Source: Patescibacteria group bacterium (lineage in GTDB: Bacteria; Patescibacteriota; Minisyncoccia; Moranbacterales; UBA2206). Taken from it: a DNA stretch of 64,000 nucleotides. The DNA lies in assembly GCA_030837625.1 (NCBI GenBank), contig JAUPKF010000003.1:1596-65595 (forward strand), read 5' to 3'. The position numbers and the translations under genes are program-made. Below are positions 3,637-63,700 of the stretch, piece by piece; the first letter of the stretch is position 1; every line of letters begins with the position of its first letter. The notes beneath the pieces are model-generated. The model was not told the origin of the DNA, did no database searches, and saw only the letters and a list, made by a program, of their open reading frames with translations.

Positions 3637-4045
3637 GGCATCCTCCTTGCCAAAAAAAGTTGAAAGCCTTCCACCAAACTGCTTCGCTTCAAAAGACTAA
3701 AAATAATCTCCTGAAATCAAGCAGTTTGGCTCGCCCCGACGTTATTCTTTGGGGCTTATATGAGGCACAACTTATGCCAGTTTTTCAAAGAGCTATTTTC
3801 TACCCCGAACGCTCTATTATAGCACATTTTGAAGAAAAAAGCAAATAAAAAAGGCCACGCCTAAGTGTGCCTCCGAAATGACAACGTTACTTTTTTCCGC
3901 AAAAAGTATCCCATGCCAGTAAATTAAAATTTATGTTTATTTTAATCCCCGTCGATTACCTGCTATTTGATTCAAAATGTCCTGACTTCCCGTTTCTCTA
4001 TTATATAAAACCAAGAGATACGCGCAAGGAAAGTTATCCACAACC

Positions 4046-4112
4046 ACTTTACGAACTACGAAATAAGCAAAATACGAAACGTTGAAACACCGTTTCGTAT
4101 TTTCGTAGTTCA
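4046..4112. repeat. Perfect hairpin of TACGAA units immediately after the uvrB stop (terminator-like)
   Basis: Sequence is gaactacgaaataagcaaaatacgaaacg-ttgaaacac-cgtttcgtattttcgtagttc, then further tttcgtatttcgtaa. Confidence 0.55.
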
Positions 4113-4113
4113 T

Positions 4114-6201
4114 TTATTTCGTATTTCGTAAAACCTGTAATTTTCTTAACTCCCCAATTTCATCTCTTATAATAGCCGCGCGCTCAAACTGAAGACTGCG
4201 CGCGGCGTCTTTCATTTCTTTTTCTTTTTGCTTGATATATCCACTGATATCTTCCAAAGTTTCCAACTCGGTAAAATCGCGCGAAACTTGCGGGTTGATT
4301 TCGTGGTCGACGATCGATTGGATTTTCTTTTTTATCGTGCGCGGAGTAATTTTATGTTTCCGGTTATATTCCATCTGCAACGCGCGCCGCCTATTTGTCT
4401 CATCAATGGCTCGGCGCATCGAACCGGTTACGGAATCGGCGTAAAGAATGACTTTTCCCCGCACGTTCCGAGCCGCCCGCCCGATAGTTTGAATGAGCGA
4501 TGTTTCGCTGCGCAAAAAACCTTCCTTGTCGGCGTCGAGAATCGCTACCAGTGACACTTCCGGCAAGTCCAAGCCTTCCCGAAGAAGATTTACCCCAACC
4601 AAAACATCAAATTCCCCGCGTCTGAGCTTTTCCAGAATTCTTATCCGGTCCAAAGTATCCACACCGCTATGCAAGTATTCCGCTTTTACTTTCGACTCTT
4701 TGAGAAAATCCGAAAGATCCTCGGCCATTTTTTTGGTCAGAGTTGTAATGAGCACCCGTTCTTTGCGCGCGATTATTTCCTTGATTTCCTCCGTCACGTC
4801 CTTCACCTGTCCTCTGGTCGGCTTTATCTCCAGCTCCGGATCAATCAATCCCGTCGGCCGAATGATTTGTTCTACCACGCCCGGTGGATTTGAATTTGGG
4901 ATTTTGGATTTGGGATTTTGGATTTGGGATTTAAGAACTTCGTAATTACCCGGGGTAGCTGATACAAATATAGCTTTATTTATTTTACGCTCAAACTCAT
5001 CAAATCTTAACGGTCTGTTGTCAAACGCGCTCGGCAAACGAAAACCGTTTTCCACTAAAGAAACTTTCCGCGAATGATCGCCATTGTACATCCCATTGAG
5101 CTGGGGAACCGTCACGTGCGATTCATCGATAACTAAAAGAAAATCCTTGGCGAAATAATCAATGAGAGTATACGGCGCTTCGCCCGGCGCGCGATCAGTA
5201 AGAAAACGAGAATAGTTTTCAATGCCGTTGCAATAGCCGATTTCGCGCATCATCTCAATGTCTTGCCTGGTTCGGCGTCGCAAACGCTCCGCCTCCAAAA
5301 GTTTATTTTGTTTTTTCAAATATTCCACTCTCTCATCCAGTTCTTTTTCGATTTCACCCATCGCGCTTTCCATCACTGGTTCGGGCACCACGAAATGTTT
5401 GGCGGGATAAATGACCGCTTTTTGCAAGTTTCCCAGCTCTTCCCCTGTCAAAAAATCATACTCGACAATCTTACTGATTTTATCTCCTACCATAGATACT
5501 CGCGTTATTACTTCCCGCCCGGGCGTCATAATTTCTAAAGTCGGACCAGTCAGACGGAATTTCCCACGCAAAAGAACATCACTGCGAGCATACTGCATAT
5601 CGATTAATTTTTTCACAATTTCATCCCTGCTCATCCGTAGGGGCGGTTCATGAACCGCCCCTACGCCGTGGCTGACAGCCAATTCCAACGTGATATCCCG
5701 ATAATATTCCGGACTGCCCAAACCGTATATGCAAGAAACCGAGGCGCAAATAATCACGTCTTTTCGCGCCATCAAAGCGGCCGTGGCGGCATGGCGCAAA
5801 CGGTCGATCTCGTCGTTAATCTGCGATTCTTTCTCGATGTAAGTGTCAGTGGAAGCAATGTAGGCTTCCGGCTGATAATAGTCATAGTACGACACGAAAT
5901 ATTCCACGGCGTTTTTTGGAAAAAATGTCCGGAACTCCTGCGCCAATTGCGCCGCCAGGGTCTTGTTGGGCGCGATGACCAACGTCGGTTTTTGCGTTTT
6001 CTCAATAACATTGGCAATCGTAAAAGTCTTCCCCGACCCCGTCACGCCCAAAAGCGTCTGGAATTTTTGATTATTTTCCAAACCCTTCACCAACTGCGAA
6101 ATCGCCCTTGGCTGATCACCTTCGGGTTTGAACTTGGAATTTATTTTAAAAATATTATTTATAGTTTTCCCTGTGTTACGTGTTACGCGACCCTCCTCCA
6201 A
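4114..6201 (-). CDS. uvrB: Excinuclease ABC subunit B (UvrB)
   Basis: The 695-aa ORF has the Walker A motif [11 protein letters not shown], UvrB helicase motifs and a C-terminal UvrB/UvrC interaction region. The true start may lie a few codons downstream of 6201. An in-frame low-complexity insertion is present (see the repeat at 4884-4936). Confidence 0.95.
4884..4936. repeat. In-frame tandem repeat (GGATTTTGGATTTGG)n inside uvrB
   Basis: Sequence is ggtggatttgaatttgggattttggatttgggattttggatttgggatttaag. It encodes ...[17 protein letters not shown]... inside UvrB. Confidence 0.7.
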
Positions 6202-11750: not shown

Positions 11751-13187
11751 TCAAATTTTCTTCTTCCGCGCCACCCGCCGCCGCATCTTCATATGCCTTT
11801 TTTGCAAAACCTGAAGCAGTTTTGATTCATCCACCCGCTGATGGCGGCGGCCTTTCACTACAAACCGGCCATTGATCATCAGATCCCGCACGATCCGCCC
11901 GCCATGCGTTATCAAGTTACCTAAAAGAGTCATTGGATTTTTTTCGTCAAACGGGATAAAGCCCCGATCTTTCAGTTTCCAAAAAGCCAAGTCCGCTTTC
12001 ATCCCGGGAAGAATCTTCCCGCGATCCGGCATATTGAGCACACGGGCGCCGTTCACTGTCATCATTTTAAAGAGCGTCCCGAATTTGACAGTTCGGGAAT
12101 ACAGATGGGTGATTCTGGTTTGATAAGCTTCTGTTAGAAGATCCAACCGGCTTTTGCTCACCACTCCGTCGGTTCCGAGCGCCACGGAAGATAGTTTTTC
12201 CAAGTCGAAAAATTTCCAAAGCGGAAAAGTTCCGGATTTGTGAATTACGTTAGAAGTCGGGAGATGAACAACGCCGACCTGGTTTTCAATAAGCTTTTCG
12301 ATTTCCTTTTCATTGATATAGATAGCGTGGGAAACTACGGTACGTTCATTAAGAAGCCCATATTTCTCAAGAAGCGCCACTTCCCGCAGACCATGCCTTT
12401 CGACGCATCTTTTGGCAACGCTCTCACTCTCGGCCATATGGCAAGTGAAAAGAAGATTGTATTTCTCGGACAACTTTTTTACTTCGCGAAAAATTTTGTC
12501 ATTCCCCCGATGGACGTAGTGCAACGCCATCGCCAATTGCGATTCCCAATTGTCTTCCTTTTTTTGGATTATTTTCCTAATCAGCTCCGGAGAATTTTGC
12601 GGATGAGTGTTTGAAGCCACGCTCACGGCGTTGATTATGTTATGCTTGGTCGCCCGCGCTGCCGCCTCAATCGGCGCGTAAACGGCATAATGGCTGAGTG
12701 TCGTAGTAACGCCGCTTTTTTGCTGCTCGGTAAGATCGCCAACTGTCGCGAAAGCATAATCCTCATCGGTCATCGCCCGTTCCCACTCCGGCATTGCCGC
12801 GATCGTCTTGTCGATCGATTCCCCTTCGTCCAATGTCATGGCGCTCCGCAGAAGATACATCGGCGGATGGGAATGAGCGTTGATGAACCCCGGAGTAACC
12901 ACGATTCCGCCGCGTTTTCCGGCGTCGTAAACAATATCAAAATTCCGCCCGGTGATTTTTTTAGCAGGAGCAATCTTGACGATAATCCCGTTTTCAACAA
13001 CGATAGAATGGTTTTTACGGCAGACCAGTTTGTTTTTTTCATCGCAGGTAAAAAGAAACGGAATATTGTCAACAAGCGCCGTTTTCCCGCGCGGATTATT
13101 CATCTTAAACCGGCTGTGGCCGTCATCCTCCAAAATATTTTCCGCCCGAATTTCCTTTTTTATTTTTTCGTAAAGTTTTTTATGCAT
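11751..13187 (-). CDS. Amidohydrolase-family deaminase (MtaD/guanine-deaminase-like)
   Basis: The 478-aa ORF has the metal-binding motif ...TPGFINAHSHPPM... (HxH) and a later ...FTCHMAESE... motif. A basic tail is present. Confidence 0.7.
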   Translation of the reverse strand: MHKKLYEKIKKEIRAENILEDDGHSRFKMNNPRGKTALVDNIPFLFTCDEKNKLVCRKNHSIVVENGIIVKIAPAKKITGRNFDIVYDAGKRGGIVVTPGFINAHSHPPMYLLRSAMTLDEGESIDKTIAAMPEWERAMTDEDYAFATVGDLTEQQKSGVTTTLSHYAVYAPIEAAARATKHNIINAVSVASNTHPQNSPELIRKIIQKKEDNWESQLAMALHYVHRGNDKIFREVKKLSEKYNLLFTCHMAESESVAKRCVERHGLREVALLEKYGLLNERTVVSHAIYINEKEIEKLIENQVGVVHLPTSNVIHKSGTFPLWKFFDLEKLSSVALGTDGVVSKSRLDLLTEAYQTRITHLYSRTVKFGTLFKMMTVNGARVLNMPDRGKILPGMKADLAFWKLKDRGFIPFDEKNPMTLLGNLITHGGRIVRDLMINGRFVVKGRRHQRVDESKLLQVLQKRHMKMRRRVARKKKI

Positions 13188-13194
13188 ATCTCTG

Positions 13195-13282
13195 GTTACG
13201 AAATACGAAATTAACGAAATACGAAAGTACGAAAAGGATTGGCACGAAGGTTTCGTATTTCGTTAATTTCGTAGTTCGTAAA
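13195..13282. repeat. Hairpin of TACGAA/TTCGTA tandem units between the amidohydrolase and guaA
   Basis: Sequence is ggttacgaaatacgaaattaacgaaatacgaaagtacgaaaagg...ggtttcgtatttcgttaatttcgtagttcgtaa. Confidence 0.55.
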
Positions 13283-23479: not shown

Positions 23480-23525
23480 CATTCGTACATTAGTATATTC
23501 GTATATAATTCGTAATTCGTAAAGA
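23480..23525. repeat. TTCGTA-unit repeat tract upstream of ychF
   Basis: Sequence is cattcgtacattagtatattcgtatataattcgtaattcgtaaagaaatcATG. Confidence 0.45.
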
Positions 23526-25882: not shown

Positions 25883-25984
25883 ACATTTACGAACTACGAA
25901 ATTAACGAAATACGAAACAAAATGCTACGCCCTTTTCGTACTTTCGTATTTCGTATTGATTTCGTAATTCGTAAAACGTAAATT
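25883..25984. repeat. Hairpin of TACGAA/TTCGTA units between ssb and rpsR
   Basis: Sequence is acgaactacgaaattaacgaaatacgaaac ... cgtactttcgtatttcgtattgatttcgtaattcgtaaaacgtaa. Confidence 0.55.
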
Positions 25985-46854: not shown

Positions 46855-46941
46855 TCCTTACGAATTACGAATTGGTACGAATGTAACGAAGTACGAATCC
46901 TTTTTTCGTACATTCGTAAATGTTCGTAATTCGTAAGGATT
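46855..46941. repeat. Hairpin of TACGAA/TTCGTA units
   Basis: Sequence is ccttacgaattacgaattggtacgaatgtaacgaagtacgaatcc-ttttttcg-tacattcgtaaatgttcgtaattcgtaagg. Confidence 0.55.
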
Positions 46942-49033: not shown

Positions 49034-49105
49034 TCCGCGGTAGCTCAATGGTAGAGCAGTTGACTGTTAATCAATTGGTTGCAGGTTCGAGTCCTGCCCG
49101 CGGAG
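49034..49105 (+). tRNA. tRNA-Asn (anticodon GUU)
   Basis: Sequence is TCCGCGGTAGCTCAATGGTAGAGCAGTTGACTGTTAATCAATTGGTTGCAGGTTCGAGTCCTGCCCGCGGAG. The acceptor stem is TCCGCGG/CCGCGGA, the anticodon loop is CT-GTT-AA and the T-loop is GGTTCGAGTCC. Confidence 0.9.
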
Positions 49106-57616: not shown

Positions 57617-58048
57617 TCAAAATATTTCCTTCCCCAACATCAGCTTTTCCAAACTCCATTTGCCGCTTCCGTATCGGGTAATGGCCAAAAAACTCGCGAA
57701 AAATAGGAGCGCCAACTCTCCGCCGTTAAGAAACGGGTTAACTCCGTTGGGAAAATGGACGGTAAGGTAAGCAACGAGCATCTCAACAGTCGCGATAGCC
57801 GCGAAGAATCTGGTGAAAATTCCCGCCGCTACCAATATGCCGGCAAAAGTTTCAATTATCCCCGCCAAGCCGACCATTCCCAAGAGTGGAGGCGTTCCCC
57901 CCAGCCCGTCTATTCCGCCGAAAGCGCCCAGAACCTTTTGAATTCCGTGCAAGAAAAAGACTCCTCCGACAATTATCCGGAAGAGCGGATAAAAAGAATT
58001 CCCCGCCAAATTGTTCAGATATTTTCCGATTTTTCCTTCTGTTTCCAT
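57617..58048 (-). CDS. DoxX-family membrane protein
   Basis: The 143-aa ORF has four TM helices with a DoxX-like N-terminus ...LFRIIVGGVFFLHGIQK.... Confidence 0.65.
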   Translation of the reverse strand: METEGKIGKYLNNLAGNSFYPLFRIIVGGVFFLHGIQKVLGAFGGIDGLGGTPPLLGMVGLAGIIETFAGILVAAGIFTRFFAAIATVEMLVAYLTVHFPNGVNPFLNGGELALLFFASFLAITRYGSGKWSLEKLMLGKEIF

Positions 58049-58098
58049 AATATTTTCACCTAAGAATTAATTCAATATTTATTACAAACGATAAACCT

Positions 58099-58518
58099 TT
58101 AATCTTCCCGCCCGATTTTCCAGATCGTGATTTGCACGAATGTCGCTGTGCCGGCCATAGCCATAATCAAAAGAAAATACCAAAACAACGGATGCGCGAA
58201 ATACAAAAAGAAAGTTACCAGCGCCATCCACACTCCCGTGCACCAAGGACAGTCAATCAGATGCCACAAAGTTCTCCCCGGTCCGCTTTCAAATTTCGCC
58301 AGATAATCCCGAACAAAATCCGTCACCATATCATACGTGAAAAGACGAATCAATCGGTACGTCGCCAAGATCAAAATCACAAAATCAAAAACGGGAATGT
58401 TCTTTGTCAATTTCCCCTGCGAATTCAAAAAAACTATCGCTAAAGCGACAAGTAGGATATACAACGACGAAGAAAACATATGCCAAAAATGCTGGTCGGA
58501 CTTGCTGGAATTTTCCAT
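58099..58518 (-). CDS. Membrane protein with a CPWC motif (DUF1360-like)
   Basis: The 139-aa ORF has four TM helices and a ...LIDCPWCTGVW... motif. Confidence 0.4.
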   Translation of the reverse strand: MENSSKSDQHFWHMFSSSLYILLVALAIVFLNSQGKLTKNIPVFDFVILILATYRLIRLFTYDMVTDFVRDYLAKFESGPGRTLWHLIDCPWCTGVWMALVTFFLYFAHPLFWYFLLIMAMAGTATFVQITIWKIGRED

Positions 58519-58641
58519 AGGTTTTGTTTTATCTGTTTATTCCATACCTACTACAAACCGCAAAGCCTTATATTTCCCGGAAACAAAAAGAGGCGAAGTC
58601 CGATGATTCGAACTCCGCCCTTTGGCCAGAAAAAACTGACC

Positions 58642-58845
58642 CTAATATTCCATCCTCATAACGCCCACGTTCAACTGAGCTTCCTCAAGCGCCTCTTTAA
58701 TATCACAGTTCAACCCTTCCGGAACATTGTCCAGAACGATTTTTTTGTGTCCGAAATGTATAAAACACTCAGGCGCAACTTTGTGAAGCGCGGAACGAAC
58801 CAACGCCTCGCTATAGCCGTCAGGCATAGAAATTACAATCGACAT
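58642..58845 (-). CDS. Small protein A of the small-ORF cluster (67 aa)
   Basis: Strong SD (gcggAAAGGAGGatg). It overlaps ORF B by 13 nt. Confidence 0.45.
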   Translation of the reverse strand: MSIVISMPDGYSEALVRSALHKVAPECFIHFGHKKIVLDNVPEGLNCDIKEALEEAQLNVGVMRMEY

Positions 58846-59057
58846 TCATCCTCCTTTCCGCTAAGAATATTAGCCACACATTCCCTCATTTCCAAGGACA
58901 TTGAAACTTTTTCCCGTGCTGTAACGAGAACAGCTGACATTATTTCTCTCTCCAGAGAAGATCCAGACGCCCAAGCGTCCCTAATCCCGCTAGGATTCTC
59001 GGCCTTTACACAGTTGGTCAACCTTACCACATTACGAGAATTAAGATCGTACAACAT
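58833..59057 (-). CDS. Small protein B of the cluster (74 aa)
   Basis: Strong SD (caaatAAGGAGGtggcATG). Confidence 0.45.
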   Translation of the reverse strand: MLYDLNSRNVVRLTNCVKAENPSGIRDAWASGSSLEREIMSAVLVTAREKVSMSLEMRECVANILSGKEDECRL

Positions 59058-59073
59058 GCCACCTCCTTATTTG

Positions 59074-59256
59074 TTAGTTGCCCTTTCTTCTTATCGACAT
59101 TCTGCCCGATACTCGATTGGATTTTCCGACCCTGAATCCAACCGGACTTTTCTTTGGAGGAATATTGAAAACAACCTCCAATAACTCAACCGCTTCTCCA
59201 TTGCGTTCAACGAAGATTATTTCCCTGCCTGATTCTGTTTGTCTCATTTTTGTCAC
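59074..59256 (-). CDS. Small protein C of the cluster (60 aa, basic C-terminus)
   Basis: An SD AAAGGAGG lies upstream. The start may be a GTG slightly upstream of the track ATG. Confidence 0.35.
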   Translation of the reverse strand: MTKMRQTESGREIIFVERNGEAVELLEVVFNIPPKKSPVGFRVGKSNRVSGRMSIRRKGN

Positions 59257-59514
59257 CGCACTTCCTCCTTTTTAAAGAACTGCCATTGCTATTGCCAAAA
59301 AATAACAACTAAAAAGCCGGCCCAGATGGCCGACTTTGGTTTTTTGAAAATTCTACTGAATCTTACGCTTTTATTTCCACGAAACCAAAACCGGCCTTCC
59401 GGATAAACCAGGAGAAGAAATAAAAGAAGCTATAGAGGTTTTGGCTCGCTGAAATTTTCATACTAAAAGTCTATCATCCTGAAAAAATCTGTCAAGCTGG
59501 CATAAAAAATATCG

Positions 59515-59540
59515 GGCGATCGCGTGGCGATCGCCCTAGT
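59515..59540 (-). terminator. Perfect GC-rich palindrome GGGCGATCGC-gtg-GCGATCGCCC, a terminator after small ORF D
   Basis: The hairpin is followed on the minus strand by gauauuuuuuaug. Confidence 0.5.
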
Positions 59541-59547
59541 GAACTGA

Positions 59548-59718
59548 TCAATTGCCGATTTCGTCCGGACGAAATTCGCCCGAAACAACGCCAGCCGTAG
59601 CCCCGAAAGAGCTTCCTTTGGCTTCTTCCTTTGAAACCTTTTTCTCATCGGGTGTTGCGACAACAGCCTTGCAGGGCTCCCCATACTTGTAGCTTTTCGC
59701 CTCTTCTTGCCTCATCAT
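59548..59718 (-). CDS. Small protein D of the cluster (56 aa), not in the ORF track
   Basis: My own translation gives MMRQEEAKSYKYGEPCKAVVATPDEKKVSKEEAKGSSFGATAGVVSGEFRPDEIGN, with an SD AAAAGGA upstream. The track ORF 59463..59684 is in a different frame and lacks an SD. Confidence 0.4.
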   Translation of the reverse strand: MMRQEEAKSYKYGEPCKAVVATPDEKKVSKEEAKGSSFGATAGVVSGEFRPDEIGN

Positions 59719-59730
59719 CTCATCCTTTTC

Positions 59731-59916
59731 TTATCGCGTTGCTTCAACTCTGTTGCCCTCCCCTCGACAAACAGGGATGTTAAGAACTTTCTCTCTCAAT
59801 GTTCTGCACGCCTTAGTGTTTGATTTAAGGGTGCACCTAGGATTCTGCTTGCGACAACCCCATATACAATCAAGGTCATTCGCCCAATTCGTTGCCTTTT
59901 TATGAGCGTCCATCAT
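59731..59916 (-). CDS. Small Cys-rich protein E of the cluster (61 aa)
   Basis: SD ggagAAAAGGAGAatgatg. It has six Cys residues (…DCIWGCRKQNPRC…KAC…VC…). Confidence 0.45.
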   Translation of the reverse strand: MMDAHKKATNWANDLDCIWGCRKQNPRCTLKSNTKACRTLREKVLNIPVCRGEGNRVEATR

Positions 59917-60208
59917 AATTCTCCTTTTCTCCGCGTCTTTGCGCGACGTTAAAGAACTTCAAAAAGAACTACTTCCTAAAAAAACAAAATCCCGCCTGAG
60001 TTGGGCGAGTGGTTCGGCTTTGATTTTGAGAAACTTCCTATCCTCCAATCAAAACGCAAACACCCGCGCGAGACGGGATATTATTGTTCTGATTATTGTT
60101 TCGAACGTTTCTCATAATTTGAGTTTACTCCAAAAGTATTTTTTGTCAAATCCGCCCATAAAAAAGAGGCGGCCACGTGGGACCGCCTGCAAAGCAGGAA
60201 GTGGGTAG

Positions 60209-60439
60209 CTAGGTAATCAACTCCACCGCCGCCTTTCCATCTTCCCTTGGTGAATGCATCATCCCCCGTGGACAGTAATATTTAACAACTTGCCCAAGAC
60301 GGACAAACTCCTCCATTTTTTCTCCACATTCAGGACAAACATGGTCATCTTGTCGAATACTTTCGCACAAATCACCCAAGATTCCCCAGGCGCCTTCGTA
60401 TAGTTCCGCAGGATTCAAGTCATCTTCTGGAAAGTACAT
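60209..60439 (-). CDS. Small zinc-ribbon protein F (76 aa)
   Basis: SD aaAGGAGGtttttctATG. The sequence has CPEC...(17 aa)...YCPRG. Confidence 0.5.
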   Translation of the reverse strand: MYFPEDDLNPAELYEGAWGILGDLCESIRQDDHVCPECGEKMEEFVRLGQVVKYYCPRGMMHSPREDGKAAVELIT

Positions 60440-60662
60440 AGAAAAACCTCCTTTTGAAAAATTTGTTTTACGTTGAAAACAAAACAGCCACCCCGTTGGT
60501 GGTTGTTACAATGAGCTATTTTTCTACACTATTTTACGAAACTCTAAAGACAACCACCGGGTGTTGGGTAAGCAACAACAACAATAGATTGTCTAATCGG
60601 TTTCGCATAGGGAAAGTTTATCATAAAAAATAAAAAATTGTCAAACATACAATTTGAGGGCA

Positions 60663-60694
60663 GGGACGCGGAAAGGATCTTCCGCGTCCCTGTT
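60663..60694. terminator. Perfect palindrome CAGGGACGCGGAAAGGATCTTCCGCGTCCCTG (bidirectional terminator-like)
   Basis: A 14-bp stem lies immediately downstream of small ORF G on the minus strand. It is followed on the plus strand by tttgtcattt. Confidence 0.5.
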
Positions 60695-60696
60695 TG

Positions 60697-60852
60697 TCAT
60701 TTCACAACGTTACTCTTGTCTTCTTTTTCTTCATCCTCCTCTATTTTTCTTTTTTGAGAGTTCTCAAAAATCTCATCCATCTTCCTCTCCGCAAGCGCGC
60801 GAAGAGTCAATGAAGGAGTAACGCCAAAAAAACTCATCAGCTCTTTCTCCAT
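60697..60852 (-). CDS. Small protein G (51 aa), not in the ORF track
   Basis: My own translation gives MEKELMSFFGVTPSLTLRALAERKMDEIFENSQKRKIEEDEEKEDKSNVVK, with an SD AAAGGAGAAAAGGA. It starts 12 nt after the stop of H. Confidence 0.4.
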   Translation of the reverse strand: MEKELMSFFGVTPSLTLRALAERKMDEIFENSQKRKIEEDEEKEDKSNVVK

Positions 60853-60864
60853 TCCTTTTCTCCT

Positions 60865-61017
60865 TTACCCGCACCACAGATAGCGCGGGTCTCTGTCTGG
60901 TCCCGGACACTCGAGATCGGGTTTCTCTTCTTCCTCAACCCAATCTCCATAAATCTTTTCAATCGCTCCAGCCGACAGCTCGACCCGAAGCTTTTTCACT
61001 TTCTTCTCTTCGGCCAT
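60865..61017 (-). CDS. Small protein H (50 aa), not in the ORF track
   Basis: My own translation gives MAEEKKVKKLRVELSAGAIEKIYGDWVEEEEKPDLECPGPDRDPRYLWCG, with an SD gaAAGGAGGgcgggctATG. Confidence 0.4.
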   Translation of the reverse strand: MAEEKKVKKLRVELSAGAIEKIYGDWVEEEEKPDLECPGPDRDPRYLWCG

Positions 61018-61290
61018 AGCCCGCCCTCCTTTCGTATTTTTAAGAACTATTCGCTCTTATTCGCTATCATTCGCTCTGCTTTCGCGAATAAAAAACCGAC
61101 GGGGTTCCGTCGAGTTCATTTTGCTTTCAACTTTTGAAACCAAAATCAACCCGACGTCCGTCGGATAATAATGTCCATAATAATGTTATTTGACCTCATA
61201 TTCATTACAATTTTGAGATTCGTATCGAAAAAATAATAATTTTTATTGGACGAGGAGCTTCTGACGAAACATGAAACCCCCCGAGGTCTT

Positions 61291-61518
61291 CTACGGTAAC
61301 CTGATTCTTCTCTCCAGCCGCCCCTCGAAATTGGGAATCACCTGGTTTTGCAACTGATACATCCTGCTCTCAACTTTGACCTTTTCGGCGGGAGCAAGCA
61401 GCAGACTCTTAAGTCTGTGTTCGAGAATCTTTACTTCATTTTGCGAAGCCGTTATCACACTCCGCAAGTGGTTGACGTCCTTGTGTTTCTTTCTTTTCGC
61501 CTGATATTCACTTCCCAT
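61291..61518 (-). CDS. Small basic protein I (75 aa)
   Basis: SD cGGAGGAGGagttATG. It is followed on the minus strand by a terminator hairpin (CGACGGaaccCCGTCG plus a U run, at ~61095-61120). Confidence 0.45.
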   Translation of the reverse strand: MGSEYQAKRKKHKDVNHLRSVITASQNEVKILEHRLKSLLLAPAEKVKVESRMYQLQNQVIPNFEGRLERRIRLP

Positions 61519-61597
61519 AACTCCTCCTCCGTAAAAGTATGAAAAGCGAGGGGAAAGCGAAGAATCCGCTTTCCCCGCAAAAAGAGTGCGTACGAGA

Positions 61598-61831
61598 TTA
61601 GATGTCTCTCGCCATTATCGGTTCTCGCGGACCAATATGGCGAATGTAACCAGGTTTGAGAGGTGGCATTTTCAAAAGCGGCGGAAGCTTCGTTTCGCTC
61701 ACAAGTTGGGCTTCCTGCTTTTCCTGTTTCTTCTTTTTTTGCTCGTTAAGTGCTAACTCAACGAGACTTTCCGCCAGCCCCTCTTTGTGGCCGGCACCAA
61801 ACATGCCGACTTCAAAATCCATCGGTACCAT
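61598..61831 (-). CDS. Small protein J (77 aa)
   Basis: SD aagAAGGAGGttttATG. The C-terminus has a ...KLPPLLKMPPLKPGYIRHIGPREP... segment. Confidence 0.45.
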   Translation of the reverse strand: MVPMDFEVGMFGAGHKEGLAESLVELALNEQKKKKQEKQEAQLVSETKLPPLLKMPPLKPGYIRHIGPREPIMARDI

Positions 61832-61974
61832 AAAACCTCCTTCTTTAAAAGTTGGATTGTTTTAGGTGTGACATCAGCCCTTGGCTAGATTTTCAGCCCC
61901 TTTTGGGAGAGCCGTAAATCCTGGAAAGATTTCTTAAATCCTCCCAATAGACGGTAACCGTCGCCAGGAATCTG

Positions 61975-62017
61975 CATGCCGGACGATAAATAACTTTTAC
62001 TTACCCTCCGGCATGCG
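61975..62017. repeat. 10-bp perfect inverted repeat GCATGCCGGA ... TCCGGCATGC with a 23-nt loop
   Basis: It lies in the intergenic region upstream of the small-ORF cluster, on the minus strand. A degenerate AGCCcttGGCT hairpin at ~61873-61886 resembles half of the 30-nt dual-hairpin module. Confidence 0.4.
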
Positions 62018-62255
62018 GATTTTCGAGATGCCAATCAACTTTTTCTCAAAGAACTACTTTTTACAAAAACAAAACCCAGTTTTTGCTGGGGTAATTTTTT
62101 TCTATTTCTTTTGCCAAACCCCAGCGAAAAATTATCGTCCAAAGACGACGGACAATACCTTGATGGTAATGTAATTTTTCACCGAGTTTTTCATGGCTGT
62201 AGGATAGCAGAATATCCAAAATCTGTCAAATGCTCCTTGTGGATAACCGGGATCA

Positions 62256-62335
62256 TGAAACATAAAGCACACAGCATGAAGCAAAAAAACACGCCTACTA
62301 AGACTCTCTATGTTACGTGTTACGTGTTACGTGTC
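62256..62335. repeat. CATGAAA plus GTTACGTG unit hairpin region downstream of rpoD
   Basis: Sequence is catgaaacataaagcacacagcatgaagcaaaaaaacacgcctactaagactctctatgttacgtgttacgtgttacgtgtc. Confidence 0.5.
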
Positions 62336-63700
62336 TTAATAGTCCCGCAGTTTCTTGATCCCCTTATGATCCCGAATCTTTTCAAGCGCTTTGGCTTCTA
62401 TCTGGCGGATGCGTTCCCGCGTTACGCCAAACTCCTGCCCGACTTCTTCCAGCGTATGCGTCACGCCGTCTTCCAAACCAAAACGTATTTTCAAAATCTT
62501 TTGTTCGCGCGGAGTCAGTTCTTTCAAGATTTCCGTTACATGATCTTTGAGCATTTTGCGGCTGGCAATCTGATTGGGCATCACCGTTTCCGTGTCCTCA
62601 ATAAAATCACCCAAAACACTATCATCATCGTCCGATCCCACGGAAGTTTCCAGGGACACTGTTTCCTGGGAAATTTTTTGGATGTGACGGATTTTTTCCA
62701 CTTCCAGCCCCATTTCCACGGCAATTTCTTCTGGCAGAGGTTCGCGTCCCAAATCCTGAACCAGTCTTCTCGTCACCTGAATATATTTATTAATCGTCTC
62801 CACCATATGCACCGGGATACGGATTGTCCGAGACTGGTCGGCTAGCGCCCGCGTTACCGCCTGGCGAATCCACCAAGTGGCGTAAGTGGAAAACTTATAG
62901 CCCTTCCGATAGTCGAATTTTTCCACCGCCCGGAAAAGCCCAATATTCCCTTCCTGGATAAGATCAAGCAAAGACAAATTGTGCGAGCGGCCGACATATT
63001 TTTTGGCGATGGAAACCACCAGCCGCAGGTTAGCTTCGGTCAATTTTTGCTTGGCTGCCAAGTCTCCCTTTTCAATCCGCTTAGCCAAAGAAACTTCCTC
63101 TTCGGTTTTCAAAAGATCCACTCTCCCTATTTCTCTGAGATACATTTGCACCAAATCCGAAGAGGCCTCTTCCGGAACCGCCAAAGCCGCCGGCTCCTTC
63201 TTTTTCTTGCTGTTTTTTTCCGTTTCCAAATCTTCCGAAATTTTATCAGTTTCCATCTTGATCATTTCATCCGAACTAACCACACGGATACTGGCTTTTT
63301 CCAACCGATCATACAGTTCTTCCAGTACTTCGATTTCTTTCTCCGCATCCGGAACGGCGTGCAAAATCTCGTCTTCCGTGACAAAGCCCCTTTGGCGAGC
63401 GCGATAAATCAGATCCTCCACGAGATCTTTTTTCTTTTCCGCCGCCTTTTCCGCCGTCATTTTTTTTGTTTCCTTGCTCGTTTTGCCAGAGGCCTTCACT
63501 CTCGCCTTCTTCTTGGAATTTTTGAAATTGTTTTTCGCTTTTTTCGCCTTATTCAAAAGCGCCCTGGCTTTCCCGGACTTTTTTACCGCCTTCCGAACCG
63601 CGCTTTGCGCCGGCGTTTTTTTCTTAATATTTTTTTTGCTGGAAAGAGCGGCTTTCTTTTTCTTGTTTTTTCTAGTTGCCATATTTGAAACGGACTGCAA
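62336..63700 (-). CDS. rpoD: RNA polymerase primary sigma factor (sigma-70/RpoD) with a K/A-rich N-terminus
   Basis: Region 2 has ...[38 protein letters not shown].... Regions 3/4 have ...[27 protein letters not shown].... Confidence 0.95.

What the first reader, a model, noticed from the sequence alone, without database searches (positions are those of the whole stretch)
58600..61860. Island of about 10 co-oriented small ORFs (49-77 aa), each with a strong Shine-Dalgarno, in terminator-bounded mini-operons
Between a membrane-protein gene and rpoD lies a 3.2-kb stretch with no ORF longer than 77 aa. Within it, at least ten small ORFs on the minus strand (labelled A-J in the features) each have a canonical AAGGAGG-type SD at correct spacing. 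Several overlap or abut (A/B overlap by 13 nt; G starts 12 nt after H). Perfect GC-rich palindromic terminators separate groups (GGGCGATCGC-gtg-GCGATCGCCC at 59515-59540, CAGGGACGCGGAAAGGATCTTCCGCGTCCCTG at 60663-60694, and CGACGGaaccCCGTCG plus a U run at ~61095-61120). Three members are Cys-rich or zinc-ribbon-like (E, F, H) and others are basic or acidic. Composition is GC-richer and R/G/P-richer than the surrounding housekeeping genes. No integrase, tRNA or repeat boundary is visible. The architecture resembles a phage early region, an accessory small-protein cassette, or a toxin/antitoxin or anti-defence gene set. The function is unknown and potentially novel.
Basis: partly seen in the sequence, partly recalled or inferred. 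Interest (0 to 1): 0.68.

Follow-up and report, generated by a model that had tools for sequence, protein, structure and literature searches.

The report
Amino-acid-sensing attenuator bank driving micro-protein genes
The ten small genes are real, but this is not a foreign island: it looks like a row of five amino-acid-sensing "leader peptide" switches downstream of rpoD in an uncultured CPR bacterium, each appearing to control one to three tiny proteins of unknown function.

Summary
Ten co-oriented minus-strand ORFs of 50-77 aa each carry an AGGAGG-type Shine-Dalgarno (SD), and hairpin/U-tract terminators separate them. About 50 long genes in this Patescibacteria contig have no SD, so these ORFs form a distinct class.

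The "island" reading is mostly wrong:
- GC equals the window (0.443 vs 0.444) and codon usage is host-like.
- There is no integrase, tRNA or boundary repeat.
- The rpoD-[small ORFs]-DUF1360 slot recurs in at least four related genomes.
- C, B and A are orthologous with dN/dS 0.12-0.21.

Four mini-operons are preceded by TTGACA-N16-18-TAnnCT-N6-ATG, a leaderless 20-32-codon ORF, three of them with a codon run (LLLLLL, NNNQNNN, FFYFFSWF). A fifth (IIMDIII) has no clear promoter. Each is followed by alternative hairpins and an intrinsic terminator just before the SD.

These leaders are better conserved between species than the ORFs they precede. In a close relative, J, I, H, G and F are replaced by non-homologous SD-led ORFs. 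Folding with a masked ribosome footprint frees the terminator's 3' arm only when the A-site sits on the run codons, in five species.

Best reading: a tandem bank of ribosome-mediated attenuators (Ile, Leu, Asn, aromatic, possibly Val/Ile) gating exchangeable micro-protein cassettes. Effector function is unknown. All evidence is computational.

The parts
62192..62229 (-). Module 1 promoter: TTGACA-17-TATCCT, then 6 nt, then the ATG of leader ORF 1
   Evidence: The same geometry occurs in relative L084.
62132..62194 (-). Leader ORF 1 (MKNSVKNYITIKVLSVVFGR, rich in Val/Ile). This is the weakest of the five leader assignments.
   Evidence: The peptide is identical in L084. The anti-termination window falls at codons 6-9, not on a clean run.
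62065..62157 (-). Module 1 hairpins: T1 (62157-62127, overlapping the leader stop codon) and terminator T2 (62090-62065, with U tract)
61869..62033 (-). Conserved multi-stem RNA-like element of about 165 nt (a closing helix plus 5 hairpins) directly upstream of the SD of J. Class unknown.
   Evidence: 52 predicted pairs, about 90% identity with L084. No Rfam match. The candidate ORF inside it is not conserved in L084.
61598..61842 (-). SD (AAGGAGG) plus ORF J (77 aa). Orphan.
   Evidence: codon score 0.30; no homologue among 1.84e9 representatives
61550..61576 (-). Terminator-like hairpin between J and I
61291..61530 (-). SD (GGAGGAGGAG) plus ORF I (75 aa, basic, predicted helical). Orphan.
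61146..61199 (-). Leader ORF 2 (MRSNNIIMDIIIRRTSG, Ile run). An upstream in-frame ATG lies at 61205. The promoter is unclear.
   Evidence: L084 has MKEISTQKSNNIIIDIIIRRMSG.
61090..61166 (-). Module 2 alternative hairpins built from four CGACGG/CCGUCG segments, ending in terminator 61112-61096 plus U6
   Evidence: (z -5.2). The block is 86.5% identical to L084.
60865..61032 (-). SD plus ORF H (50 aa, conserved C-terminal motif PDLECPGPDRDP.YLWCG)
   Evidence: Homologue P0016 lies on a phage-like contig next to a GH25+M23 lysin.
60697..60866 (-). SD plus ORF G (51 aa, acidic C-terminus). Orphan.
   Evidence: (0.36)
60661..60692 (-). Perfect GC-rich hairpin after G, without a U tract. A related hairpin sits at the same position in L084.
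60606..60644 (-). Module 3 promoter: TTGACA-18-TAAACT, 6 nt, ATG
60534..60608 (-). Leader ORF 3 (MRNRLDNLLLLLLTQHPVVVFRVS, Leu run)
   Evidence: The frame and stop are kept in L084 and L093, with synonymous Leu changes and an in-frame 3-nt indel.
60476..60558 (-). Module 3 switch: GGTGGTTGT (60558-60550) can pair with ACAACCACC, which is the 5' arm of terminator 60506-60476
60209..60454 (-). SD plus ORF F (76 aa, zinc-ribbon CPEC...CPRG)
   Evidence: Zn_ribbon_6, E=1.6e-4, below the cutoff; 47% homologue behind the same leader in L093
60160..60188 (-). Terminator after F. Homologous terminators follow the positional equivalents in L084 and L093.
60113..60149 (-). Module 4 promoter: TTGACA-16-TAAACT, 6 nt, ATG
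60038..60115 (-). Leader ORF 4 (MRNVRNNNQNNNIPSRAGVCVLIGG, Asn run)
   Evidence: The L098 homologue is MSRMRNIQNIKQNNVAPSFAGDCVLIRI.
59978..60077 (-). Module 4 alternative hairpins and terminator (60009-59991 plus U tract)
   Evidence: z -4.5; 3 pairs changed on both sides between 2 species
59731..59928 (-). SD plus ORF E (61 aa, Cys-rich motif DC[IL]WGC..N..C)
   Evidence: homologue behind the module 4 leader in L098/L100, z 7.7. The codon score is ambiguous.
59548..59729 (-). Weak SD (AAGGA) plus ORF D (56 aa). Orphan.
   Evidence: (0.31)
59504..59536 (-). Terminator after D (10-bp stem plus U tract)
59459..59495 (-). Module 5 promoter: TTGACA-16-TAGACT, 6 nt, ATG
59363..59461 (-). Leader ORF 5 (MKISASQNLYSFFYFFSWFIRKAGFGFVEIKA, aromatic run)
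   Evidence: The aromatic run is kept in 4 species, including the distant L108 (RFYFYFTWF). dS is 0.06 here against 0.4-1.4 in neighbouring genes.
59311..59396 (-). Module 5 switch: the 15-bp anti-terminator (59396-59382 with 59342-59328) competes with terminator 59337-59311
   Evidence: (98% of cells paired across 4 species)
58642..59273 (-). Conserved operon C (60 aa, basic tail), B (74 aa, four-helix bundle), A (67 aa, ferredoxin-like), each with an AGGAGG SD
   Evidence: (dN/dS 0.12, 0.20, 0.21)
58585..58620 (-). Terminator closing the C-B-A operon, upstream of the DUF1360 gene

Best explanation
The 3.7 kb between rpoD and the DUF1360 gene (about 62229-58585, minus strand) is a chromosomal, lineage-conserved regulatory slot. 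It holds five tandem transcription units of one design.

Design of each unit:
- A sigma-70-type promoter lies 6 nt upstream of an ATG, so the transcript should start at or next to the start codon (leaderless).
- That ATG opens a 17-32-codon leader ORF. In four of the five it carries a run of one kind of codon: Ile (module 2), Leu (3), Asn (4) and Phe/Tyr/Trp (5). Module 1 is a Val/Ile-rich mix.
- The leader RNA can fold into mutually exclusive hairpins (1:2, 2:3, 3:4). The last is an intrinsic terminator, immediately upstream of the Shine-Dalgarno of one to three small ORFs.

Proposed mechanism, which is classical ribosome-mediated attenuation:
- When the cognate charged tRNA is plentiful, the ribosome runs through the leader ORF, the terminator forms and transcription stops.
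- When it is scarce, the ribosome stalls on the run and masks segment 1. Segment 2 then pairs with segment 3, the terminator cannot form, and RNA polymerase reads into the SD-led micro-protein genes.
- A strong SD is needed there because these cistrons sit behind a structured leader, in a genome whose other genes start from A/U-rich, SD-less leaders.

Shown by sequence and comparison:
- the architecture;
- conservation of the leader frame and of the codon runs;
- purifying selection on C, B and A;
- syntenic conservation;
- replacement of the other cassettes between species.

Inferred: the transcription start sites, stalling, read-through, and everything about what the micro-proteins do.

My best guess is that they are small binding or regulatory effectors made under shortage of a specific amino acid, in an organism that (from general knowledge of CPR bacteria) must import its amino acids.
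For: (1) Promoter geometry. The four best promoter matches on the minus strand of 58000-62500 (10/12 each) are exactly the four leader promoters, each 6 nt from an ATG. The same geometry occurs in L084, L098, L093 and L108.

(2) Rarity of the pattern. 'Strong promoter + 4-9 nt + ATG + 8-40-codon ORF with at least 5 of 8 identical residues' occurs 3 times in this 3.7 kb. It occurs 4 times in 1.33 Mb of control loci.

(3) Leader ORFs behave as coding sequence.
- Frame and stop are conserved.
- Changes inside the runs are synonymous (CTA/CTC, TTG/CTA, TTC/TTT, ATT/ATC).
- L093 has an in-frame 3-nt indel.
- The aromatic run is kept in distant L108 while flanking residues change.

(4) Nucleotide conservation. 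Leaders are 83-97% identical between species whose neighbouring genes have dS 0.4-1.4. The module 5 and module 4 leaders align at 72-79% in L098, where the neighbouring DUF1360 and DoxX proteins are 55-56% identical and B and A are 46-47%.

(5) Structure. All leaders fold more stably than shuffles, with z from -2.6 to -5.2. Each ends in a hairpin plus U tract. The 15-bp module 5 anti-terminator is 98% paired across 4 species.

(6) Ribosome-mask folding. Masking a ribosome footprint codon by codon lowers the pairing of the terminator's 3' arm most, and often only partly, when the A-site is on the run codons.
- Module 3: L10-11, to 0.00-0.07.
- Module 4: N12, or N13-14 in L098, to 0.39 and 0.01.
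- Module 5: Y14-F15, to 0.17-0.33. In L098 it reaches 0.01 and in L108 0.23.
- Module 2: D/I positions, to 0.39-0.45.
- Elsewhere in modules 2-5 pairing is usually 0.6-1.0, but module 3 in the window sits at 0.12-0.35 over codons 1-10 and 0.22 at the stop.
This held in up to five species.

(7) No competing promoter. There is no promoter-like site between any leader terminator and the following SD.

(8) The downstream ORFs are genuine.
- dN/dS for C, B and A is 0.12-0.21, with third-position bias.
- F, H, E and C have protein homologues elsewhere.
- Codon scores are host-like.
- AlphaFold models are confident for A (pLDDT 90.5) and B (87.3).

(9) Precedent. Leaderless short ORFs with codon runs act as amino-acid-responsive attenuators in mycobacteria (bioRxiv 10.1101/834739).
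Against: - Nothing here is experimental.
- Only 2-4 species are available per module. Covariation is weak: there are no both-sided compensatory changes in the module 5 anti-terminator, and three in module 4 from just two sequences.
- The regulated genes are not biosynthetic, tRNA-synthetase or transporter genes, which is what classical attenuators control.
- Leader 1 has no clean run, and its anti-termination window is off the Val/Ile codons.
- Module 2 lacks a convincing promoter.
- The Asn run is degenerate in L098.
- In equilibrium folding some 'ribosome at stop' or 'no ribosome' states do not give a clear terminator.
- Leaders being more conserved than their cargo is unusual for a cis-regulator. 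It would also fit stand-alone small RNAs.
- The 16S anti-SD of this organism could not be checked.
Confidence: 0.6

Rival explanations
1. The conserved leaders are stand-alone small RNAs, or tiny-peptide genes, each with its own promoter and terminator. The SD-led ORFs downstream are unrelated genes expressed by leak-through or from undetected promoters. The codon runs are a by-product of low-complexity sequence.
For: - The leaders have complete promoter-to-terminator units and very high nucleotide conservation.
- The cargo ORFs are swapped while the leaders stay.
- A further conserved structured element without an ORF sits at 62033-61869.
Against: - Frame, stop codon and run residues are conserved, with synonymous changes and an in-frame indel.
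- Anti-termination windows coincide with the runs in every module and species.
- Only 30-75 nt without promoter signals separate each terminator from the next SD.
- The leader-cargo pairings M3-F, M4-E and M5-C...A recur in other genomes, M3-F even in a different genomic context.
Confidence: 0.15
2. The leader ORFs do sense amino acids by stalling, but the output is mainly translational, by unmasking the downstream ribosome-binding site as in the mycobacterial Cys system, rather than transcription termination.
For: - The mycobacterial precedent works this way.
- The downstream genes have unusually strong SDs in an otherwise SD-less genome.
Against: - Every leader ends in a GC hairpin followed by a U tract, the signature of an intrinsic terminator.
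- The SDs lie 30-75 nt beyond the hairpins and are not obviously sequestered in the predicted folds.
Confidence: 0.1
3. One reading: this is a horizontally acquired islet, such as a prophage early-region remnant, an anti-defence set or a toxin/antitoxin set, inserted between rpoD and the membrane-protein gene.
For: - ORF content from J to D differs between close relatives, and J, I, G and D are orphans among 1.84e9 representative proteins.
- The H homologue lies among tiny overlapping ORFs next to a GH25+M23 lysin on a phage-like contig.
- The nearest GTDB relative, L001, has entirely different genes after rpoD.
Against: - GC and codon usage match the host.
- There is no integrase, tRNA or flanking repeat.
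- There are no PHROG, PADLOC or Pfam hits and no IMG/VR matches to H or to four leaders.
- C-B-A and the leader scaffold are syntenic and under purifying selection in several species.
Confidence: 0.08
4. Most of the small ORFs are not genes. The AGGAGG motifs and open frames are chance or RNA-level features of a long non-coding region.
For: - Four ORFs (J, I, G, D) have no homologue anywhere.
- E has an ambiguous codon score.
- The J, I, H, G and F segments have no detectable DNA or protein counterpart in the close relative L084.
Against: - 9 of 10 ORFs fit the in-frame host codon model, against 3.6% of shadow ORFs. The orphans score 0.28-0.36, above the 95th percentile of shadows at 0.23.
- SD-to-start spacing is canonical in all ten.
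- Six of the ten have conserved protein homologues.
- The relatives carry different but equally SD-led ORFs in the same slots.
Confidence: 0.04

Closest known systems
Classical leader-peptide transcription attenuators of enterobacterial amino-acid operons (trpL, leuL, pheL, ilvL, hisL, thrL). This comparison rests on established textbook knowledge.
   Same: - A short leader ORF carries a run of codons for one amino acid.
- Overlapping 1:2, 2:3 and 3:4 hairpins follow.
- An intrinsic terminator with a U tract lies just before the first structural gene.
- The predicted anti-termination occurs only when the ribosome sits on the run.
   Different: - The leader ORFs appear leaderless, with no SD.
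- Five attenuators of different specificity (including Asn, which to my knowledge is unusual) are arrayed head-to-tail in one locus.
- The controlled genes are 50-77-aa proteins of unknown function, not biosynthetic enzymes.
- The host is a CPR/Patescibacteria lineage, expected to lack amino-acid biosynthesis.
- The cargo is exchanged between species while the leader stays.
Polycysteine leaderless short-ORF attenuators of mycobacteria (Canestrari et al., bioRxiv 10.1101/834739)
   Same: - A leaderless short ORF is the first cistron of an operon.
- It carries a codon run for one amino acid.
- Ribosome stalling is proposed to remodel the downstream RNA structure.
- Several loci share the design.
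   Different: - The mycobacterial system is translational (RBS unmasking), is specific for Cys and controls cysteine-metabolism genes at dispersed loci.
- Here there are U-tract terminators, four or five different amino acids, a tandem arrangement and unknown micro-protein cargo.
T-box riboswitches (a functional analogue that senses tRNA charging in Gram-positive bacteria)
   Same: A 5' leader with terminator/anti-terminator alternatives would report the aminoacylation status of a specific tRNA.
   Different: There is no T-box sequence or structure, and no Rfam match at any threshold. Sensing here would be through translation of a leader ORF.
Phage early-gene or moron clusters and small genomic islets
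   Same: There are strings of tiny, SD-led, often orphan ORFs with overlapping stops and starts. Content varies between strains. One member (H) has a relative in a phage-like lysis-gene context.
   Different: There are no mobility genes, attachment sites or compositional shift. The position is a conserved chromosomal slot. Half of the content is vertically conserved.

Membership tests
Ribosome-mediated (leader-peptide) transcription attenuator | A short ORF in the 5' leader carries consecutive codons for the sensed amino acid | tested here: met
   The runs are LLLLLL, NNNQNNN, IIMDIII and FFYFFSWF. They are conserved in relatives with synonymous changes. The pattern is rare in 1.33 Mb of controls. 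Leader 1 is only weakly enriched.
Ribosome-mediated (leader-peptide) transcription attenuator | An intrinsic terminator (GC hairpin plus U tract) lies between the leader ORF and the first regulated gene | tested here: met
   All five modules have one.
Ribosome-mediated (leader-peptide) transcription attenuator | A mutually exclusive anti-terminator forms when the ribosome stalls on the run, and not otherwise | tested here: met
   This was tested in silico only. Footprint-masked partition-function folding places the minimum of terminator-arm pairing on the run codons in modules 2-5 in up to five species. The module 5 anti-terminator is 98% paired across 4 species. The kinetics were not modelled.
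Ribosome-mediated (leader-peptide) transcription attenuator | The regulated genes make, charge or import the sensed amino acid | tested here: not met
   The downstream genes are 50-77-aa proteins with no Pfam, NCBIfam or PDB relatives.
Ribosome-mediated (leader-peptide) transcription attenuator | Read-through increases on starvation for the cognate amino acid | not testable with these tools
   This needs a reporter or transcriptome experiment.
Leaderless short-ORF attenuators (mycobacterial Cys 'ribulon' type) | The transcript starts at the AUG of the sensory short ORF | tested here: inconclusive
   The -10 hexamer ends exactly 6 nt before the ATG in modules 1, 3, 4 and 5 and in their homologues. 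No transcription-start data are available.
Leaderless short-ORF attenuators (mycobacterial Cys 'ribulon' type) | Stalling unmasks a sequestered RBS of the downstream gene | tested here: not met
   In the predicted folds the SDs lie outside the hairpins, and the hairpins carry U tracts instead.
Genomic island or prophage remnant | Integrase or recombinase, tRNA or repeat boundaries | tested here: not met
   No such ORF is present. The nearest tRNA is at 49034. No boundary repeats were seen by eye in the sequence; the repeat finder was not run.
Genomic island or prophage remnant | Composition or codon usage deviates from the host | tested here: not met
   GC is 0.443 against 0.444. Codon usage is host-like.
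Genomic island or prophage remnant | The block is absent from the same site in related genomes | tested here: inconclusive
   C-B-A and the leaders are present in the same slot in L084, L098 and L108. The J, I, H, G, F and D cassettes are absent or replaced. The slot is absent in L001.
Toxin-antitoxin, anti-phage defence or anti-defence gene sets | Similarity to known toxin, antitoxin or defence families | tested here: not met
   PADLOC, Pfam, NCBIfam and PHROGs gave no significant hit.
Known riboswitch or RNA leader families (Rfam 15) | A covariance-model match | tested here: not met
   There were no hits at gathering thresholds. The best sub-threshold hit was the ylbH leader at 23.8 bits against a cutoff of 50, and it falls inside ORFs H and G.

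The most novel reading that the evidence does not exclude
CPR bacteria of this clade carry, next to their primary sigma-factor gene, a multiplexed 'charged-tRNA sensor array'. In it, separate Ile, Leu, Asn and aromatic attenuators each license a slot for interchangeable micro-protein cassettes. The conserved leader and terminator act as fixed expression and recombination anchors. The cassettes are exchanged with phages or other genomes (H being one trace of that). They act as starvation- or infection-triggered effectors, for example shutting down growth or modulating the interaction with the host cell. That would be a previously undescribed regulatory or defence-like system in obligate symbionts, which are not expected to need amino-acid attenuators at all.
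Probability: 0.2. Interest if true: 0.85.

Novelty: new variant of a known kind. Interest (0 to 1): 0.7.

Why it matters
- Regulation in CPR/Patescibacteria is largely unknown, and I found no paper describing leader-peptide attenuation in this group.
- If the reading is right, organisms presumed to import all their amino acids still monitor the charging of individual tRNAs, and they route that signal to tiny proteins rather than to biosynthetic genes.
- The reading gives testable handles, in the form of specific starvation conditions, for ten 'hypothetical' micro-proteins.
- It explains why strong SDs appear only here in an otherwise SD-less genome.
- It shows that annotation pipelines miss the short leader ORFs that organise the locus. 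Only one of the five was ever called as a gene, and then only in a relative.
- The conserved leader with swapped cargo is also a rare, clear example of modular cassette replacement inside fixed expression slots.

Tried and rejected
Searches that added nothing:
- The word-indexed protein search with five ORFs concatenated found nothing, not even the query's own proteins, so it is uninformative.
- The rpoD scan of GTDB representatives returned mostly distant phyla. Only L001 was close, and it lacks the slot.
- The protein alignment of B+A was too divergent for locus scanning.
- Leader peptide 5 was too short for a protein search.
- The metagenome scan with the module 5 terminator motif returned only the relatives already in hand.
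- IMG/VR scans for H and for four leader motifs were negative.
- Logan contigs carrying the locus are 100% identical to the window, so no population variation was available.
- Pfam, NCBIfam, PHROGs and PADLOC were negative.
- Rfam was negative at gathering and at E<=10.
- AlphaFold plus Foldseek for A gave a generic ferredoxin-like fold (best E 9e-3). For B it gave a helical bundle (best E about 1). Neither assigns a function.
- PDB sequence searches for F, C, I and J found nothing.

Ideas dropped:
- The host uses mostly leaderless mRNAs. Only 5 of 44 long genes have a -10 box at that distance.
- The positional ORFs in L084 are diverged orthologues of J, I, H, G and F. No similarity exceeds shuffled controls; only E pairs with the L098 ORF.
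- The cargo proteins avoid the sensed amino acid. By inspection they do not: F has 6 Leu and E has 6 Asn.
- The 234-aa plus-strand ORF is a gene. It has a shadow-like codon score and is split in L084.

Full report
**What the window is.**
The small ORFs are deposited as hypothetical proteins QG620_278-285 of a 'Patescibacteria group bacterium' MAG. The flanking genes (dnaG, rpoD, DUF1360, DoxX, DUF488, msrB-like and others) are ordinary chromosomal genes. The closest species representative in GTDB is a Moraniibacteriota MAG with 85% rpoD identity.

**Checking the observation.**
- All ten minus-strand ORFs are present: J 61831-61598, I, H, G, F, E, D, C, B and A 58845-58642.
- Each has an AGGAG/GGAGG core 3-9 nt from its start codon; D has the weaker AAGGA.
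- Terminator-like sites are five-fold enriched, 21 against 4.3 +/- 2.6.

None of about 50 long genes in the 64-kb window has an SD; their upstream regions are A/U-rich and G-poor. The combination 'SD + start + plausible ORF' occurs ten times in the island and only about twice elsewhere, at 3647 and 30888. The same split is seen in two related genomes.

Some details fail:
- The region is not GC-richer, at 0.443 against 0.444.
- A 234-aa ORF exists on the opposite strand, but it behaves as a shadow ORF.

**Are the ORFs genes?**
A codon model trained on the window's long genes ranks the annotated frame first for 9 of 10 ORFs, against 3.6% of shadow ORFs. The four orphans score 0.28-0.36, above the 95th percentile of shadows at 0.23.

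An exhaustive HMMER scan of 1.84 billion representative proteins gave these results:
- F, H, B, A and C have non-self homologues.
- J, I, G and D have none.
- E has none in that scan, but a motif-level homologue turned up later.

Against the orthologous locus in GCA_001784815.1 (L084), dN/dS is 0.12 for C, 0.20 for B and 0.21 for A, with third-position bias. That is comparable to the neighbouring DoxX gene at 0.26.

AlphaFold models are confident. A is a ferredoxin-like beta-alpha-beta-beta-alpha-beta fold (pLDDT 90.5) and B is a four-helix bundle (pLDDT 87.3). Neither has a significant structural neighbour. No Pfam, NCBIfam, PHROG, PADLOC or PDB sequence match assigns a function. F has only a sub-threshold zinc-ribbon signal.

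**Is it an island?**
Mostly not. The order dnaG-rpoD-[small ORFs]-DUF1360-DoxX recurs in L084, L098 and its duplicates, an unsequenced JGI contig, and the more distant L108 from GCA_041665805.1.
- B-A, or C...A, lies immediately upstream of DUF1360 or of the copper-resistance genes in these genomes.
- There is no integrase, tRNA or boundary repeat.
- Composition and codon usage match the host.

The interval is nevertheless a turnover hotspot. In blastn against L084, where core genes are about 80% identical, only these parts align:
- the non-coding stretch after rpoD (62248-61829);
- two non-coding blocks (61193-61057 at 86.5% and 60627-60471 at 83%);
- everything from 59536 onward.

The J/I, H/G and F segments are replaced in L084 by different SD-led ORFs of 63, 55, 50 and 54 aa that show no similarity above shuffled controls. 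E and D are absent from L084. E and its leader are present in L098. The M3-F pair occurs in a different genomic context in L093. H has 66-78% identical relatives on a contig that looks phage-derived, with holin-like small membrane ORFs, a zinc-ribbon ORF and a GH25+M23 lysin. IMG/VR has no match.

**What the conserved non-coding blocks are.**
Four of the five mini-operons are preceded by the same construction; module 2 has the same leader but no recognisable promoter. It consists of a near-consensus promoter (TTGACA, 16-18 nt, TAnnCT), exactly 6 nt, then an ATG opening a short ORF. Alternative hairpins follow, and then a hairpin plus U tract 30-75 nt before the SD.

The short ORFs are:
- leader 1, MKNSVKNYITIKVLSVVFGR;
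- leader 2, MRSNNIIMDIIIRRTSG;
- leader 3, MRNRLDNLLLLLLTQHPVVVFRVS;
- leader 4, MRNVRNNNQNNNIPSRAGVCVLIGG;
- leader 5, MKISASQNLYSFFYFFSWFIRKAGFGFVEIKA.

The four strongest promoter matches on this strand in 4.5 kb are exactly those of modules 1, 3, 4 and 5. A strict scan for this pattern finds nothing comparable elsewhere in the window or in the relatives outside this interval. With the added requirement of at least 5 of 8 identical residues, it finds 4 hits in 1.33 Mb of control loci against 3 in these 3.7 kb.

The reading frames are conserved across species, with synonymous changes inside the runs:
- Leu: CTA/CTC and TTG/CTA.
- Phe: TTC/TTT.
- Ile: ATT/ATC.
- L093 has an in-frame 3-nt deletion and keeps the same stop position.
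- In the distant L108 the aromatic run survives (RFYFYFTWF) while GFGF becomes GLGL.

Leader 5 differs from its L084 orthologue at only 3 of 96 nt (dS 0.06), where neighbouring genes have dS 0.4-1.4. This indicates constraint at the nucleotide level as well.

**Does the RNA behave like an attenuator?**
All five leaders fold more stably than dinucleotide shuffles, with z from -2.6 to -5.2. Complementarities typical of 1:2, 2:3 and 3:4 schemes are visible:
- Module 3: GGTGGTTGT against ACAACCACC, the 5' arm of the terminator.
- Module 5: GGCCGGTTTTGGTTT against AAACCAAAGTCGGCC.
- Module 2: four CGACGG/CCGTCG segments.

I masked a 29-nt ribosome footprint at every codon and computed the pairing probability of the terminator's 3' arm. 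In modules 2-5 the probability is usually 0.6-1.0 without a ribosome or with it elsewhere, although module 3 in the window sits at 0.12-0.35 over codons 1-10. It reaches its minimum within a 2-4-codon window at the end of the run:
- Module 3: L10-11, to 0.00-0.07 in three species.
- Module 4: N12 to 0.39 in the window, and N13-14 to 0.01 in L098.
- Module 5: Y14-F15 to 0.17-0.33, to 0.01 in L098 and to 0.23 in L108.
- Module 2: D/I positions to 0.39-0.45.

Treating the four modules as independent, the chance that all minima fall inside the runs is about 0.008 (my arithmetic).

The 15-bp module 5 anti-terminator is 98% paired over four species, with three one-sided changes that preserve pairing and no double compensatory change. 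The two-species module 4 alignment shows three double changes. Module 1 is weaker: it has no clean run and its window is at codons 6-9. Module 2 has no clear promoter.

**Interpretation.**
The best-supported model is a tandem bank of ribosome-mediated transcription attenuators. They are specific for Ile, Leu, Asn and aromatic residues, perhaps with a branched-chain mix in module 1. Each gates one to three SD-translated micro-proteins.

The strong SDs make sense because these cistrons follow structured leaders, in a genome that otherwise initiates on unstructured A/U-rich leaders.

The nearest precedents are the classical enterobacterial attenuators (textbook knowledge) and the leaderless polycysteine short-ORF attenuators of mycobacteria, which act translationally (10.1101/834739).

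What differs here:
- the tandem, multi-amino-acid array;
- the CPR host;
- the unknown micro-protein cargo in place of biosynthetic genes;
- conservation of the switches while their cargo is replaced.

I found no paper combining leader-peptide attenuation with CPR. The function of the cargo remains unknown. Small size, zinc-ribbon, basic-tail and compact-fold features suggest binding or regulatory roles, but that is inference only.

**Rivals.**
- Stand-alone sRNAs with unrelated downstream genes (0.15).
- Translational rather than transcriptional output (0.10).
- Non-genes (0.04).

The evidence for and against each is given in the structured fields.

**Verdict.**
The interpretation as an island is largely refuted, although cassette turnover in J-D and the phage link of H keep an 'accessory' element alive. 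The locus is better described as a new variant of leader-peptide attenuation. All of this rests on sequence analysis of five species and needs transcript mapping and reporter tests.

Noticed in passing
whole window (for example the upstream regions of about 50 long genes): The long housekeeping genes have no Shine-Dalgarno at all. Their upstream 20 nt are A/U-rich and G-poor, and only 5 of 44 have a -10 box at leaderless distance. Related genomes L084 and L097 show the same pattern.
   Followed up: partly
window 62033-61869 (-): A multi-stem RNA-like element of about 165 nt (a closing helix plus five hairpins) lies between the module 1 terminator and the SD of ORF J. It is about 90% identical in L084, has no conserved ORF and has no Rfam match. 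It could be an unknown riboswitch or sRNA.
   Followed up: partly
window 62055-62048, 59970-59963, 59958-59951, 59281-59274 (-); also L084, L096, L098, L108: The octamer AGTTCTTT recurs between the attenuator terminators and the SDs, and also in the relatives. There are 12 copies in the window against 3.7 expected. Its role is unknown; it could be a processing or binding site.
   Followed up: partly
window 4049-4131, 13167-13281, 23498-23522, 25887-25974, 46858-46936; also 62333-62311: The heptamer TTCGTAW (53 copies against 22 expected) forms tandem and inverted arrays in intergenic regions. A similar ACACGTA x3 array follows the rpoD stop codon. L084 has TACGAAT arrays at the equivalent place.
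   Followed up: partly
window 3636-3313 (-), with leader from about 3826: This is another SD-led ORF, Cys-rich and 107 aa, with an ambiguous codon score. It sits behind a TGcTATAAT promoter and a leader of about 170 nt without an obvious leader peptide.
   Followed up: partly
window 30874-30698 (-): An SD-led 59-aa small membrane protein gene sits behind a TGcTATAAT promoter. It has a good codon score of 0.38.
   Followed up: partly
L094 1-3604 (JGI Ga0272380_10051328): The contig carrying the H homologue has a phage-lysis-cassette look: a 127-aa C-terminal-TM protein, a 62-aa membrane protein, several overlapping tiny ORFs, a 66-aa double zinc-ribbon ORF and a GH25+M23 lysin. It may be a CPR phage or a host-attack module.
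   Followed up: partly
L084 7042-7397 (-): In the close relative, the slot between modules 2 and 3 also holds antisense small membrane-protein ORFs (60 and 82 aa) that are absent from the window.
   Followed up: no
window 55771-55733 (-): A 12-codon ORF (MLILLVRLTAGI) lies 8 nt after a perfect TTGACA-17-TATACT promoter, just upstream of the DEAD-box helicase gene. It is the only other hit of the promoter-plus-short-ORF scan that has a consensus -35 TTGACA hexamer.
   Followed up: no
L093 about 800-1205: Downstream of the M3-F module in this metagenome contig is a tRNA-like sequence that appears to be interrupted by a long insertion, possibly an intron. This was not analysed.
   Followed up: no
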